This document shows, piece by piece, positions 16,816 to 52,270 of a stretch of DNA of 64,000 nucleotides (the first letter of the stretch is position 1; every line of letters starts with the position of its first letter). Position numbers and translations under genes: made by a program. Where the stretch lies: the NCBI GenBank assembly GCA_030390025.1, contig CM059431.1, positions 135,844,001-135,908,000 on the forward strand, given 5' to 3'. This DNA is from Squalus acanthias. Its lineage: Eukaryota. The notes under the pieces were generated by a model. It worked only from the letters and a program-made list of their open reading frames with translations, ran no database searches and was not told where the DNA came from.

Positions 16816-17575
16816 TTTCTGTTTTCTGTCAAATACCTCATGTCATGTTGTTTTGTTGTAAGTAAATTAGGCAAATTTACTGTAAATAAATTATAGTATC
16901 AACTGAACAAATATATAGTCCTCAAAAAGTAGAACACATTGAATTTGTCATATCAGGGTTTTATAATGTAGCTTTACAGCCTTCACAGTTTTTTAAATAT
17001 TCATTTTATATTAAACATCTTCAAGAGGCATCTCAACATATGTATTTGGTTGTAGGTTTTGCATTCTAACCAAGCAACAGCCTTGGAGGCATCTACTATT
17101 TGGATTGCCCCTCCGTCCTGGTGGGGATGGGGGTGGGGGAGGGGACGGATGGTCGGGAAGGAAGTGCTTTGTAAAGAAAGTCAGCAGAACCGGCATGAAT
17201 GGTAAATGGTACATCTGTCTGTTTTCTCAAGACTTCTCTGAATTATCAAATAATAGCCTTTAAATTATAGCTTGGGATACAAGCATGTGAACATTTAATC
17301 TAAAGTTGTTTTCCCTCTTATTTTAGTGGACACGTTAGCCCTTTTAAAATGCTTCTGCTAAAATAGCAGAGACAGAGGGGGAATTTTAACACCCAAAAAC
17401 GGGTAGCATTGAGTTGGGTGGGAAGTTAAAATGTTAAAAATTTCAAATCTGCACCCAACCCGCCTCAAACACTAATACGATAGCAAAATACTGCGGATGC
17501 TGGAAATCCAAAATAACAACAGAAAACGCTGGAAAAACTCAGCAGGCCAGGCAGCATCCATGGAGAGAGAAACAG

Positions 17576-17612
17576 TGTTAACGTTTCAGGTCGAAGACCC
17601 TTTGTCAGAACT
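17576..17612 (-). ncRNA. Minimal hammerhead ribozyme motif with mutated core (CUGACAA)
   Basis: Minus strand AGTT CTGACAA AGGGTCTTCGACCT GAAACGTT AACA; G8 is changed to A. Confidence 0.6.
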
Positions 17613-18088
17613 GAGAAAAAAGCAGGAAATGAAACAGATGAAGTTGGAGGCTGGGGGAAGGAATAAAAGAACAAAAGGGGAGGTCTGTGAGGAGTAGAGA
17701 CATTAAGAGATGCTCAAGGCGAGACGAGATGGTAATAGGACAGGTTAAGAAACAAAGGATGGCTCAGAAGTGTGAAATGCGCTGGCAGAATGAAAGACAG
17801 CTGCCATGGGGGAGAGAGAAAAAAAAGGGAAAAGGCACAAACCAAAAGTGTGGATAAAAAATATATATATATATACAGGAAACTTTCGTTTATCCGGCAT
17901 CGACGGGACCGGCGTGGTGCCGGTTTATCGAAAGTACTGGATAACGGAGAGTTATATCTACCGAGGCTATTTTTAACCTAAAAGAATCAAGAAATGTGCA
18001 GTATACAGTATTTGATGCTTGATTAAGTACAGTACTGCCAGTTGAGGGTAATCCATAACTCTTTAATTACTTAACAGTAAAACAAAAC

Positions 18089-19897
18089 TTATAAACGACT
18101 GTCTACAGTACTGTAGTTGACTGTACACTTATTCTGAGTCATCTGGTTCATCAGAAATATCCGTATCCGTGCCAGCTGGGTCATCAGGATCACGCAGTTC
18201 CACCGATGCCACAGATTCTTCAGGCACTTCCGCTGCTGCGACTCTTTTGGAAGCTTTCTTAAACATGTTGCGGATGTCGGTTTGCTTAGTGGACTCTTGC
18301 CTTTTCTGGAGAAAGGTGGAATGCAGAATATGGAGTTGCATAACTTCTTGTGCAGTGTAGCAATTCTGCCTTTCAGCAAATTTGAGGATTGTAGAAAATC
18401 CGTCTGCAGCTTTAGCCCGAGAAATCTTCTCTTCTTCAGAAATCTCATCCTCTTCACTTTCCATCTCGCTTTCCTTTTCTTTGGATTCAAAACATTCTGA
18501 ATTATTTCATCATCACTTAGCATATGCACAACACCAACTTCTCTATCTGCATCAACCCACTGCTCGATATCACTTTCACTGAGGTGATGTAGAGGGTTTG
18601 CTGCGCCTGCATTTTTCACCATTCCAGCCATTTCCATTATTGTACTCTTCTTGGGACGAACACTGAACCCTTGAAATTCCTCCTCTGAAGAAGAACCTTC
18701 AGCAAACATTACAGAAGGCCACAATTTGTGCCAGGCTTGCCTCAGAGTGTGACCTTTCACCAATTTCCAGGAACATGCAACATTATAGATGGCATCTTTA
18801 ATATTGTATTCCTTCTGCAAATCTTGAATATTCTCATCTTGGCTTAGCAGTTTACGTAGGAAGTCTTTCTTGTAATGACACTTCAGATTTTGGATAACGC
18901 CCTGGTCCATGGGTTGGATGAGAGAAGTTACATTTGGTGGCAAATAAATGGTGAAAATATTTCCCGAAACCAACTGGGATTCATGCGGATGGGCTCTGCA
19001 ATTATCAAGCAATAAAATGCATTTGCTATCTTCAGGTTTCCCTATTCTGCGGAAATGTTCCTTCACAGATGGAACAAAAATATGATGGAACCAATCGGAG
19101 AAGATTTCCTTATCCATCCAAGCATTTTTTTGAGCTTTGTACTCAACAGGTAAGTGCCTCACATTTTTAAATGCACGGGGATTTTTATACTTCCCGATAA
19201 CAAGAAGTTTAACCCGGTGTGATCCAGCGGCGTTCGCACATGTTAGCACGGTTACACAATCTTTATTTTTCTTGTAACCTGAAGCATTAGCCTCACTAGC
19301 CCCAGCAAGCGTTGATTCTGGCAAAAACCTCCAAAACAAGCCAGTTTCATCGGCATTGTAGATCTGTGCTGGCGACAAATCATGTCGCTGCACAATCCGA
19401 TTGAAATAATCGCAGTATTCTTCTGCGGCTTCGTGATCAGCTGATTTCTTCTCCCCGGAAATATCGAGTCGTCGTATCCCGTGCCGTAACTTGAAGCACG
19501 TTAGCCATCCCTCGGAGAAAGCACACTTGGCAGTGAGCTCCATCCTATCGTAGAATTCCTTCGCTTTCTCGATGAGCATGGGTCCGGAAATTGGAACACC
19601 CTCTGAACGCTTAAGAGAAAACCATTCATAAAGCACGGTATCCAGCTCTTCAAGCTTAGGCTTACGAAGCGTACGCCGTTTCTCTACACTCTTGCATGTC
19701 TCCGAGCTTGAATAAAACTTGAGCAGCTTATCCTTCTGCGATTTGATGTCGTAGATTGTTGACGAACCGATTTTGAATTCATTCATAATGTTGATACGCT
19801 TCTCTCCCCTTTCTAGTCGTTGGCATATCTCGATTTTCTGTTTTAAAGTTAAGACCACTCTCTTCCTTTTGCTTGGACCAGCTTTTGGGAATTCCAT
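18089..19897 (-). CDS. pogo/Tigger (CENP-B/Jerky-like) DD32D transposase with a frameshifted C-terminus
   Basis: ATG at 19897 ([21 protein letters not shown]); CENP-B-type HTH domains; catalytic [16 protein letters not shown] (32-aa spacing). The native-looking acidic tail with KQTDIRNMF lies in another frame (18129-18464). Confidence 0.93.
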
Positions 19898-19936
19898 AAT
19901 GCAAGATGGAGGAGATAATTGCCGATGAAGATGGAA

Positions 19937-20120
19937 AGACACACAGAACAATGGTGGCTAGGAAGAGACTACCACCAGCGTGGCAGACACACAGCAAAAT
20001 GGTGTATCAGAAGAGACTACAGTACCAGCAGTGTGGGAGACACACAGCAAAATGGTGGATCAGAAGTGACTACCAGCATCGTGGGAGACACCCAGCAAAA
20101 TGGCCGATCAGAAGAGACTC
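19937..20120. repeat. Four imperfect tandem repeats of about 48 bp in the Tigger 5' region
   Basis: AGACACACAG-type anchor at 19937, 19985, 20038 and 20086. Confidence 0.85.
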
Positions 20121-20452
20121 CAGGCAGCGCGGGGGAATCAACTCCTGCTACTGCAATGTTTCGGACTTGCGACAGCGCCAGGAGGCCGAGTAGTGGCACT
20201 TTTGAAAAGTACCCCTACTGACTAAATCGGCGTTCGCGGACTCGGACTCGGACTCGGGATCGGCAACATTGCCGGTTATTTGAGAGGAGTTTTCGGAGCA
20301 CTCGGCGTTCGCGGAGACTCGACTGCAACTCGGCAACATTGCCAGTTATTTGAGAGGAGTTTTCGGAGGATGATTTTTGCCGGTTATGCGAGAATTCCGG
20401 ATATTTGGGTGCCGGATAAACGAAAGTTTCCTGTATGTGGTAGGGGCCGAGG

Positions 20453-20710
20453 TTATGATCTGAAATTGTTGAACTCGATATTGAGTCCGGAAGGCTGTAA
20501 AGTGCCTAATCGGAAGATGAGGTGCTGTTCCTCGAGCTTACGCTGAGCTTCCGTGGAACAATGCAAGAGGCCGAGGACGGTGAGGTCTGAGTGGGCGTGG
20601 AGCGGTGAATTAAAGTGACAGGCGACCAGAAGCTCGGGCTCACCCTTATGGACTGAACGGAGGTGTTCCGCAAAGCGGTCACCCAATCTGCGTTTGGTCT
20701 CCCCAATGTA
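20453..20710 (-). pseudogene. Penelope GIY-YIG endonuclease C-terminal fragment
   Basis: YIGETKRRLGDRFAEHLRSV...VACHFNS...EEQHLIFRLGTLQPSGLNIEF. Confidence 0.9.
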
Positions 20711-21025
20711 CCTAATTTACTTGTACTTCTTGCAATCTAGTATACTGTATTCGCTGCTCACCATGTGGTCTCCTCTACTATTTATCCACACTTTTGGTTT
20801 GTGCCTTTTCCTTTTTTTTCTCTCTCCCCCATGGCAGCTGTCTTTCATTCTGCCAGCGCATTTCACACTTCTGAGCCATCCTTTGTTTCTTAAACTGTCC
20901 TATTACCATCTCGTCTCGCCTTGAGCATCTCTTAATGTCTCTACTCCTCACAGACCTCCCCTTTTGTTCTTTTATTCCTTCCCCCAGCCTCCAACTTCAT
21001 CTGTTTCATTTCCTGCTTTTTTCTC

Positions 21026-21061
21026 AGTTCTGACGAAGGGTTTCGACCTGAAACATTAACT
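21026..21061 (+). ncRNA. Minimal hammerhead ribozyme motif in the inverted pLTR
   Basis: AGTT CTGACGA AGGGTTTCGACCT GAAACATT AACT; core intact, stem III palindrome decayed (AACGTT to AACATT). Confidence 0.65.
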
Positions 21062-21944
21062 CTGTTTCTCTCTCCACGGATGCTGCCTGGTTTGCTGAGT
21101 TTTTCCAGCGTTTTCTGTTGTTATTTCCGCCTCAAACACGACCACTTCCAGTTTTGATGGAGGCGGGATGAGGGACGAGCAGCCAATCAGCTCTCAGAAG
21201 GCGGGTCAGGTGGCAAAACCTTTTAAGGATGCTGCGCGTCTCCATTTTAATATGATTTCTATTTTTAACTACAGTCGGCTGGGTTTCCCTGGCCTCAGGA
21301 AACCCGGCAGGTAAAAGGAGCCAAGAAGGGCTGGATCCACCAGGTAAGTGCCTTTACAGCACTGCTTGTGGGCCAGGAATAGGAGGAAAAGTGTTTCCTC
21401 TCAGCCCAACAACTCCCGCTGCCACCCCGATGCGATCTGTCCGTCACCCTCCGCAATTCCCAATCCCCCCACAAGCTCCATCCCACGATCTCTCTGCTCC
21501 ACCCAATCTATCTGCTCCCTCCACAATCCCTCTGTTGCCCCCCCACAACCTCGCTGGTCCCCGCGATGTAAATGATCCCCCTTCCCGTGATCACCGACGC
21601 CGCCCCCCCCCGTGTCGCTCCGCTCCTTCCACAAGATCTAAACGCTCCCCTCACCGCCCGCAATCTCTGCCCACCACCACTACCTGCTCCGCGGCTGCAA
21701 TCTTGTGCCACAGGATTTACTGTCCTGTCAATCAGGCTGGCTGTGAGGTGGGAAACCTGGAGAAACAAATTAAAACACACCCTGGAGTTAAAACACGTAT
21801 CTCCTGGTTTCCCGACCATAACTCTTCCCTGCCCCAACCCCCACCTCTGAACTCGCGCCTCGGTAAATATCAGGGCTATAGTTTCAAACAACTGCATTGA
21901 GCATTAATGCCTTTCATCCCACTGTATATTTTTGAAGCCCATGA

Positions 21945-51585: not shown

Positions 51586-52270
51586 TGTAGCAAAATACTG
51601 CAGATGCTGGAAATCCGAAATAACAACAGAAAACGCTGGAAAAACTCAGCAGGCGAGGCAGCATCCGTGGAGAGAGAAACAGAGTTAACGTTTCAGGTCG
51701 ATGACCTTTCGTCAGAACTGGAAACAGCCGGAAATCAAATAGATTTAAGGTTAGGATAAAGCTGGGAAAAGGGGGAGGGGATGAAAGAACAAAAGGAGAG
51801 ATTAAGAGACATTACGAGACATTAAGAGATATTCAAGTCAAGAGGTGGTGTTAATGTGACAGGTTAAGGCTGAAAGAAGTGTGAAATCCACTGGCAGAAT
51901 GAAGGACAGCTGCCAGCTTCTAGGAGGGGAAAAAAAAGGAGGGGGGGGCCAAATAAAAGGGTGGATGAAAAAATAAAATATAAATGTGATTGGGGCTAAG
52001 GTTATGATCTAAAATTGTTGAACTCGATATTGAGTCCAGAGGGCTGTAGCGTGCCTAAACAAAAGATGAGGTGCTGTTCCTCGAGCTTACGCTGCGCTTC
52101 CGTGGAACAGTGTAATAGGCCGAGGACGGTGAGGTCAGAGTGGGAGTGAAGCGGTGAATTAAAGTGACAGGTGACCGGGAGCTCGGGGTCCCCCTTACGG
52201 ACTGAACGGAGGTGTTCCGCAAAGCGGTCACCCTTTGCGGAACACCTCCGTTCAGTCCGTAAGGGGGACC
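51586..52270 (-). mobile_element. Penelope-like element 3' end with terminal fold-back
   Basis: GIY-YIG C-terminus at about 52003-52233 homologous to 20453-20690; pLTR homologous to 17481-17860. Confidence 0.9.
51683..51719 (-). ncRNA. Minimal type I hammerhead ribozyme, intact motif
   Basis: AGTT-CTGACGA-A-AGGTC(ATC)GACCT-GAAACGTT-AACT: stems I and II pair, and stem III is the palindrome AACGTT. Confidence 0.78.

What the first reader, a model, noticed from the sequence alone, without database searches (positions are those of the whole stretch)
17876..20433. Young, complete pogo/Tigger transposon one base away from an intact transposase
Seen: perfect TIRs, TA TSD, abundant CpG, and intact HTH and DD32D domains. 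Adding one A to the run at 18475-18478 joins NVLNPKK to [10 protein letters not shown]...[11 protein letters not shown] (589 aa). As assembled it reads 602 aa with a basic out-of-frame tail. Known: pogo transposases carry a C-terminal PCNA-binding (PIP-like) motif. Inference: a recently active, possibly horizontally acquired family and a candidate for reconstruction. This copy would give a catalytically complete but PIP-less enzyme, unless the indel is an assembly error.
Basis: partly seen in the sequence, partly recalled or inferred. Interest (0 to 1): 0.72.

Follow-up and report, generated by a model that had tools for sequence, protein, structure and literature searches.

The report
Decayed shark Tigger, cousin of JRK
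This is a complete but broken copy of a cut-and-paste "jumping gene" in what looks like a shark genome, from the same transposon lineage that mammals turned into their JRK (Jerky) gene; it is a new member of a known group and shows no sign of a recent jump between species.

Summary
The element is real: 24-bp perfect TIRs, TA at both ends, CENP-B_N + HTH_Tnp_Tc5 + DDE_1, DD32D, CpG o/e 0.82 versus 0.39. It sits inside a Penelope-like repeat in a probably cartilaginous-fish genome. It is not one base from intact. All 4 public runs laid on it carry four more bases at the break, and the copy has Cys at an Arg kept in 118 of 120 homologues, plus CpG-decay changes. The frameshift removes a conserved helical hairpin, not only a non-canonical PIP-like motif. 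Family contigs differ by 0.9-2.0% and include internally deleted forms, so the family was mobile; with sharks' slow mutation rate that may still mean millions of generations. No protein above 74% identity was found. The element groups with carpet-shark proteins inside the clade holding coelacanth, alligator and turtle Tiggers and mammalian JRK, so recent horizontal acquisition is unsupported. The reptile Tiggers are already published beside JRK; this family was not in the survey rows I saw. The scan earlier noted a related, apparently domesticated carpet-shark gene (e1-7788937), not this family. Verdict: new member of a known kind; modest interest as a mobile cousin of JRK.

The parts
17874..17875 (.). 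TA target dinucleotide, left (end of a (TA)n run)
   Evidence: sequence
17876..17899 (+). Terminal inverted repeat, 24 bp (downstream end of the transposase gene)
   Evidence: 17/24 identical to published turtle and alligator Tig1-like TIRs, the inner 10 bases identical
18089..19897 (-). Transposase ORF as assembled, 602 aa; the last 130 aa are out of frame and have no homologues
19715..19870 (-). CENP-B_N helix-turn-helix
   Evidence: Pfam PF04218, E 1.7e-18
19469..19651 (-). HTH_Tnp_Tc5 helix-turn-helix
   Evidence: Pfam PF03221, E 1e-14; CENP-B DNA-binding structure 1hlv hit by sequence and by fold
18731..19261 (-). DDE_1 match; triad codons D183 (19349-19351, just upstream of the Pfam match), D298 (19004-19006), D331 (18905-18907): DD32D
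   Evidence: Pfam PF03184, E 3.5e-55; model matches Mos1, SETMAR and Sleeping Beauty catalytic domains
19256..19258 (-). Codon 214: Cys in this copy, Arg in the family and in 118 of 120 homologues; a CpG-decay change at the start of the second strand of the catalytic fold
18728..18730 (-). Codon 390: His in this copy, Arg in the family and in 101 of 120 homologues; CpG decay
18475..18476 (-). Frameshift: this copy lacks one 4-bp unit of a short tandem that other copies carry
   Evidence: table 4 (X6, X8, X12 at full depth; one contig and a matching loose end in X1)
18129..18476 (-). True C-terminal region (115 aa + stop), out of frame in this copy: acidic linker, helical hairpin, PIP-like motif, acidic tail
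18231..18419 (-). Predicted two-helix hairpin (tail residues 20-36 and 42-82; pLDDT 96-98 over 21-60), conserved through to mammalian JRK
18261..18284 (-). PIP-like motif QTDIRNMF (Met where the consensus has Phe)
   Evidence: consensus from PMC5371812
19937..20123 (.). Three to four ~50-bp direct repeats in the 5' untranslated part
   Evidence: D1
20227..20393 (.). Subterminal direct repeats holding three imperfect copies of the inner TIR core (20269, 20339, 20377): possible extra transposase sites (inference)
   Evidence: (D2, D4, D5)
20410..20433 (-). Terminal inverted repeat, 24 bp (upstream end)
20434..20435 (.). TA target dinucleotide, right
   Evidence: sequence; an X6 contig stops exactly at 20435 (table 8, record 22)
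17511..21126 (.). Host repeat: Penelope-like fragment with inverted arms 17511-17858 and 20781-21126 (339/348 identical) and an endonuclease-like ORF piece at 20456-20716; the transposon interrupts it
   Evidence: empty paralogue at 51588-52233 and empty-site joints. The Penelope/GIY-YIG label is recalled; Pfam gave no hit

Best explanation
A full-length, now dead copy of a Tigger (pogo superfamily, DD32D) cut-and-paste transposon family of cartilaginous fish, from the clade that also holds coelacanth, alligator and turtle Tiggers and mammalian JRK. Inferred from family knowledge: an intact family transposase bound the inner TIR through its two HTH domains, cut the element out with the DD32D core and inserted it at a TA, here inside a Penelope-like repeat; it also moved internally deleted derivatives. 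Shown: this copy then acquired a 4-bp tandem-unit loss that swaps the conserved helical C-terminus for 130 unrelated residues, and substitutions including R214C. Inferred: these are neutral post-insertion decay (slippage, methyl-CpG deamination), the product would be inactive, and with both TIRs intact the copy could still be moved in trans. The family is young in sequence (this copy is roughly 0.3-0.9% from it) but probably millions of generations old, and most likely reached this host by descent within sharks.
For: Anatomy. Family form has four more bases at the break in 4 of 4 runs. Six ORF substitutions among the rows shown are fixed or nearly fixed against this copy in all four runs; 5 change a residue and 3 are CpG decay. 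Internal-deletion joints 17977>20112 in 4 of 4 runs and 17959>20375 in 3 of 4; empty-site joints of the host repeat in 4 of 4; within-run polymorphism in X1. Pooled differences to long family contigs: 17/1909 (X6), 24/1809 (X8), 38/1900 (X12). Host-repeat arms differ at 9 of 348 columns, a similar upper bound. Best protein identity 71-74% (whale shark, coelacanth) among 120 listed full-length hits and at most 69% among 120 listed short hits. Tree: window + Rhincodon + Chiloscyllium 100/97, inside a 20-row clade (84/96) with JRK (97 SH-aLRT). Named non-bacterial best hits of a neighbouring LINE are sharks. All four laid runs also hold the host's Penelope-like repeat. Shark mutation rate 7e-10 per generation.
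Against: No genome is held, so copy number, copy identities and intact copies in this host were not measured. No run is known to be the window's own individual (best word share 0.64), so an assembly origin of the 4-bp loss is not excluded; in X1 only 2583 of 34455 depth units show the longer form and the rest is uninformative (short contigs). Only 40 of 107 substitution rows were shown. The JRK-containing clade has bootstrap 84 only. One lineage per host is rejected for coelacanth (p-AU 0.011) and for turtle + alligator (0.009), so old transfers among vertebrates remain possible. The effect of R214C is inferred from conservation alone.
Confidence: 0.72

Rival explanations
1. The family entered this shark lineage recently by horizontal transfer, and its low divergence reflects a recent invasion.
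For: Low divergence among holders (18 rows at word share 0.39-0.64 in 9 studies and 8 coded organism labels); high CpG; a 71% core identity between shark and coelacanth elements is high for the time since they split; the deep tree does not follow one lineage per host; Diaby 2022 reports frequent Tigger transfers, including other shark families.
Against: No protein above 74% identity in either search; the nearest relatives are shark proteins (100/97); grouping with the snail/spider rows is rejected (p-AU 0.005; group named after seeing the tree); 4 of 4 laid runs hold the same host repeat, so they look like related hosts; slow shark mutation explains low divergence.
Confidence: 0.12
2. The frameshift is an assembly error and this locus holds an intact, possibly active element.
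For: Every other form seen has the longer sequence; the site is a low-complexity purine run; the source reads were not seen.
Against: The difference is one 4-bp tandem unit rather than a homopolymer slip; the copy has other private changes, three of them CpG transitions typical of real decay, including R214C, so it would be damaged even with the frame open.
Confidence: 0.08
3. The copy makes a functional or regulatory shortened product: a TIR-binding protein without the C-terminal hairpin that represses the family, or a full-length protein by ribosomal frameshifting.
For: The as-assembled frame stays open for 602 aa with both HTH domains and the triad; this clade has given host genes before (JRK; perhaps the carpet-shark gene).
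Against: The new tail has no homologue in 120 proteins; private changes are 5 replacement to 1 silent, no sign of selection (small numbers); the site has no canonical X XXY YYZ slippery heptamer (read; rule recalled) and a 4-bp loss is not a conserved family feature; the copy lies in a LINE-rich stretch inside another repeat.
Confidence: 0.05
4. It is a domesticated single-copy JRK/TIGD-type host gene.
For: Databases name its closest relatives 'jerky protein homolog'; DD32D matches JRK's triad.
Against: Perfect TIRs, insertion inside a young repeat whose other copies are empty, internal-deletion derivatives, broken frame; the 'jerky homologs' of coelacanth are 15 proteins at 92-99% identity on contigs of seven different lengths, and those of turtles and alligator match published transposons by species and length.
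Confidence: 0.03

Closest known systems
Tig1-like1 Tiggers of turtles (Chpi, Chmy, Mate, Pesi, Apsp) and Alsi/Almi-Tig1-like of alligators (Gao 2020, PMC7386202 Table S1; Alsi_1 and Pesi_2 in Diaby 2022, PMC9219625 Table S1)
   Same: 2.3-2.8 kb, 22-26-bp TIRs, TA, 586-601-aa transposase in most rows, DD32D where intact; TIR 17/24 identical with the same inner 10 bases; 68% core identity to the Chrysemys (591 aa) and A. sinensis (597 aa) proteins that match those rows by species and length. Gao's Fig. S5 lists them directly beside JRK.
   Different: Those are 4-10 copies, several with mismatched TIRs or a broken triad; this one has perfect TIRs starting CAGGA, lies in a cartilaginous fish, and its family contigs are within 0.9-2.0%.
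Coelacanth 'jerky protein homolog' families (P0003 cluster; P0004 cluster)
   Same: 70-71% core identity, 589-aa full-length members, intact triad and conserved Arg.
   Different: Annotated as genes, and called a JRK pseudogene in Gao 2020, but 15 members at 92-99% identity on several chromosomes point to a transposon family with open frames; their TIRs could not be examined.
Mammalian JRK (Jerky) and Tigger15a
   Same: Same domain order, DD32D/E, 55-61% core identity, conserved C-terminal hairpin; same clade. JRK still binds Tigger15a termini (PMC13538051).
   Different: JRK is a single-copy host gene; the named JRK rows lack the PIP-like motif. Reptile and one coelacanth family are closer to JRK than this element is. 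No Tigger15a sequence or JRK matrix was available for comparison.
Carpet-shark JRK-like protein (Rhincodon P0151, 588 aa; Chiloscyllium P0007)
   Same: Sister group in the tree (100/97), 66-71% identity over the core.
   Different: An earlier scan note reads it as an immobilised, kept gene (unchecked for synteny here); it has a long stem branch, and one clade with JRK is rejected (p-AU 4e-6).
Passer (pogo superfamily; active in human cells, PMC9976928)
   Same: pogo-type element from fish used as a gene-transfer tool.
   Different: DD35D, 400-500-aa transposase, separate family; activity shown there, none shown for this family.

Membership tests
Tigger (pogo superfamily) transposon | Short TIRs (8-33 bp in Diaby 2022) | tested here: met
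   24 bp, perfect
Tigger (pogo superfamily) transposon | TA target-site duplication | tested here: met
   TA on both sides; empty paralogue and empty-site joints place the insertion at an AT/TA run. The left TA is within a TA run
Tigger (pogo superfamily) transposon | CENP-B_N + HTH_Tnp_Tc5 + DDE_1 in one ORF | tested here: met
Tigger (pogo superfamily) transposon | DDxD triad as in the JRK-side Tiggers (DD32D) | tested here: met
Tigger (pogo superfamily) transposon | Phylogenetic placement with published Tiggers | tested here: met
   Same clade as turtle and alligator proteins that match published Tigger rows by species and length; reference Tigger1/pogoR/Passer sequences were not in the tree
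Tigger (pogo superfamily) transposon | Dispersed multiple copies in the host genome | tested here: inconclusive
   No genome; indirect only: deletion derivatives, within-run variants, contig ending at the TA
Active autonomous element | Full-length frame with conserved residues | tested here: not met
   4-bp frameshift, R214C, R390H in this copy
Active autonomous element | Excision or integration activity; polymorphic insertions | not testable with these tools
   needs assay and population data
pogo PIP box | Qxx[ILM]xxF[FY] at the C-terminus (PMC5371812) | tested here: not met
   QTDIRNMF has Met at position 7; the alligator relative has the canonical form at the same place
pogo PIP box | Binding to PCNA | not testable with these tools
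   no suitable PCNA sequence in session
CENP-B-type C-terminal dimerisation domain | Sequence or fold match to the CENP-B dimer domain | tested here: inconclusive
   Hairpin predicted; Pfam, PDB sequence and fold searches gave only generic helical matches, best Z 7.7, rmsd 2.2 over 65 residues
Domesticated JRK/TIGD gene | Loss of TIRs and mobility, conserved open frame | tested here: not met
   perfect TIRs, broken frame
Domesticated JRK/TIGD gene | Conserved orthologous locus | tested here: not met
   inside a young repeat with empty copies; no listed contig bridges the right end into this flank (the listing was cut)
Tigger15a family | Match to the Tigger15a consensus and to the JRK binding motif | not testable with these tools
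   neither sequence nor matrix appeared in the text I could read

The most novel reading that the evidence does not exclude
The family still has intact, mobile copies in some shark genomes, making it (with the open-frame coelacanth families) a living representative of the transposon clade that was domesticated at least twice, as JRK in mammals and separately in carpet sharks. One could then compare a working ancestor-type transposase and its TIR with JRK directly: whether JRK recognises these ends, what the conserved C-terminal hairpin and PIP-like motif do, and what was lost on domestication.
Probability: 0.3. Interest if true: 0.6.

Novelty: new member of a known kind. Interest (0 to 1): 0.36.

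Why it matters
JRK is one of very few human proteins reported still to bind its ancestral transposon's ends (PMC13538051), but that ancestor is a fossil in mammals and the published reptile relatives are few and worn. A little-diverged family from the same clade, with perfect TIRs and deletion derivatives, is the material needed to study the mobile state, and it suggests that some 'JRK pseudogenes' and 'jerky homologs' annotated in sharks and coelacanth are transposon copies. Diaby 2022 found signs of current Tigger activity in only two vertebrates, so an active family would be uncommon. This particular copy is dead and is a poor starting point; the value lies in the family.

Tried and rejected
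Whole-genome copy census: no genome held. Expression: no RNA holder listed; not evidence either way. Depth was not used as copy number. Homodimer prediction of the tail hairpin: no answer, score 0.12, alignment not used by the tool; no evidence either way. The idea that the tail is a CENP-B-type dimer domain came from a recalled resemblance and from the hypothesis in PMC4231638; CENP-B's domain was not listed in Pfam, PDB sequence or fold searches, which neither supports nor excludes it. Mapping R214 onto a Mos1 residue: the fold search gave no residue-level alignment; a correspondence with Mos1 K190 is recalled only. Programmed frameshifting: no canonical slippery site. Other TIR copies in the window: none within 5 mismatches. 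Earlier scan findings by sequence and by relatives: none. The first 68-row tree did not finish its careful search; a 35-row subset did. JRK motif and Tigger15a consensus: not found as text; file 13 of that paper's supplement was not searched.

Full report
Observation. The element runs from 17876 to 20433 (2558 bp), with 24-bp TIRs identical at 24 of 24 positions and TA outside each. CpG observed/expected is 0.82 inside and 0.39 in the rest of the window. The minus-strand ORF from 19897 is 602 aa and carries CENP-B_N, HTH_Tnp_Tc5 and DDE_1, with D183, D298 and D331 spaced DD32D. A model of the 473-residue core (mean pLDDT 80) matches the CENP-B DNA-binding domain and the Mos1, SETMAR and Sleeping Beauty structures.

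The lesion. I laid 4 of the 24 listed runs (X1, X6, X8, X12; four coded organisms, four studies; all contigs) on 17600-20770. All four show four extra bases behind 18475, at full depth in X6, X8 and X12; in X1 one contig (2583 of 34455 depth units) and a matching loose end show it, and the other X1 contigs are too short to say. The copy has therefore lost one unit of a short 4-bp tandem, not one A. It also has a 6-bp tandem duplication at 18158 that X6, X8 and X12 lack; by arithmetic the family frame is 588-590 codons, like the whale-shark (588) and coelacanth (589) proteins. Of 107 substitution rows 40 were shown, 24 of them in the ORF. Six are fixed or nearly fixed against this copy in all four runs (18135, 18604, 18671, 18729, 19258, 19386); five more are seen in all four but are mixed in X1 or X8. 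Five of the six change a residue and three are CpG decay. One gives Cys at position 214, where 118 of 120 homologues have Arg, at the start of the second catalytic strand; another gives His at 390 (Arg in 101 of 120). The source individual's reads were not identified (best share 0.64), so an assembly error is not excluded, but the pattern is that of real post-insertion decay. The lost tail is more than a motif: it folds as a two-helix hairpin (pLDDT 96-98 over residues 21-60) that is conserved as far as mouse JRK (34% over 65 residues). The motif QTDIRNMF misses the PIP consensus at position 7, and a review states that the functional relevance of pogo PIP boxes remains unclear (PMC5371812, passages).

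Family and age. Long family contigs differ from the copy by 17/1909 (X6), 24/1809 (X8) and 38/1900 (X12) bases, figures that include differences between hosts and subfamilies; the six fixed changes give a lower bound of about 0.3% (6 in 1766 coding bases, my arithmetic). Internal-deletion joints (17977>20112 in 4 of 4 runs, 17959>20375 in 3 of 4, two more in fewer), a variant TIR end, and mixed sites within X1 indicate a dispersed family with non-autonomous derivatives; copy number could not be measured. The element sits in a Penelope-like repeat (label recalled; no Pfam hit) whose inverted arms differ at 9 of 348 columns; an empty paralogue lies at 51588-52233 and empty-site joints occur in 4 of 4 runs. 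If the arms began identical, this caps the insertion at roughly 1.3% per lineage. Perfect TIRs are expected about 65% of the time at 0.9% decay. The host looks like a cartilaginous fish: of 12 hits to a neighbouring LINE, the best with an animal name are Stegostoma and Chiloscyllium at 64-67%, birds at 46-48%; two bacterial labels at 67-69% on 1.6-1.7-kb contigs are probably contamination (inference). At the epaulette-shark rate of 7e-10 per generation (CI 1.4-14.1e-10; PMC10587355, passages), 0.9% is about 13 million generations (6-64 million) and 0.3% about 5 million. 'Young' holds in sequence terms, not necessarily in years.

Relatives. No listed protein exceeds 74% identity among the best 120 of 1505 full-length hits or the best 120 of 141 short hits. 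The nearest are 'jerky homologs' of whale shark, coelacanth, turtles, alligator, bamboo shark and then mammalian JRK (55-61% in the rows compared). In a 35-row tree the element groups with Rhincodon and Chiloscyllium (100/97) inside a 20-row clade (84/96) of coelacanth, alligator, turtle and JRK rows plus one unnamed long-branch protein (97 SH-aLRT in the 68-row quick tree). AU tests, with groups named after seeing the tree, reject coelacanth monophyly (0.011), turtle + alligator (0.009), window + snail/spider rows (0.005) and carpet-shark + JRK (4e-6), and do not reject a shark versus bony-vertebrate split (0.18). So descent within sharks is the simplest reading for this family, while the clade's older history needs several coexisting lineages or old transfers.

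What is known. Gao 2020 (PMC7386202; passages, Table S1 and S2 rows, text of Fig. S5 part 3) lists turtle Tig1-like1 and alligator Tig1-like transposons of 4-9 copies whose TIRs share 17 of 24 bases with this one, places them beside JRK, and calls the coelacanth and cartilaginous-fish relatives JRK pseudogenes. The coelacanth cluster here has 15 proteins at 92-99% identity on contigs of seven lengths, which reads as a transposon family. Diaby 2022 (PMC9219625; passages and Table S1 rows) lists chondrichthyan Tiggers with other TIRs (four rows seen, one row between them not seen), has no match to this TIR's first eight bases, and finds current Tigger activity rare in vertebrates. The Codebook papers (PMC13538051, passages and Supplementary Note 2; PMC11601254, one passage) report that JRK binds Tigger15a termini; I could not obtain the motif or consensus. 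PMC4231638 and PMC9976928 were read as passages. Paper searches turned up no description of this family; Repbase and Dfam could not be searched, so it may be catalogued there. An earlier scan note (e1-7788937) reads the carpet-shark relative as a kept host gene; my tree is compatible with that and makes it separate from JRK, but I did not test synteny.

Mechanism. Shown: anatomy, lesions, deletion derivatives, insertion into a repeat, placement. From established family knowledge: TIR binding by the paired HTH domains, DDD-catalysed excision and insertion at TA. Inferred: this copy's product is inactive through loss of the hairpin and R214C; the hairpin may mediate self-association (tests inconclusive); the copy can be moved in trans if an intact source survives.

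Verdict. A real, full-length, decayed Tigger; a new member of a known JRK-side clade. Interest 0.36. The boldest reading not excluded is that the family is still mobile and offers a working counterpart of JRK's ancestor (probability 0.3, interest 0.6).

Noticed in passing
window 17511-21126: Penelope-like fragment with 348-bp inverted arms (97.4%) around an endonuclease-like ORF piece; it is the target of the transposon and gives an internal clock. An older, empty copy lies at 51588-52233.
   Followed up: partly
P0003 cluster (P0123-P0136) and P0004 cluster: Coelacanth 'jerky protein homolog' entries form two multi-copy families, many with long open frames; one is closer to turtle elements and JRK than the alligator element is. 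Probably un-annotated transposons and better candidates for activity tests.
   Followed up: partly
P0058 cluster (P0164-P0171): A more distant 581-587-aa JRK-like protein shared at 90% or more by skates, Mobula and unnamed Logan proteins (one on 67 contigs): either a kept batoid gene or another young family.
   Followed up: no
P0013: Softshell-turtle JRK-like transposase fused to a domain annotated PF01352 (KRAB, name recalled): a possible further domestication from a neighbouring branch.
   Followed up: no
window 17959/17977/18004/18014 joined to 20375/20112/20165/20198: At least four internally deleted (MITE-like) derivatives, and a variant TIR end at 20419 in X6 and X8 that suggests a second related subfamily.
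   Followed up: partly
window 19937-20393: Two sets of direct repeats upstream of the ORF; one repeats the inner TIR core three times, giving asymmetric ends.
   Followed up: partly
P0292, P0293: LINE reverse transcriptases 67-69% identical to a window LINE are labelled Proteus mirabilis and Klebsiella pneumoniae on 1.6-1.7-kb contigs: probably host contamination in bacterial assemblies.
   Followed up: no
whole window: Dense with LINE fragments of several subfamilies (many 65-90% self-matches); apart from the transposase, the recognisable ORFs of 150 aa or more are LINE-like and I recognised no host exon among them.
   Followed up: no
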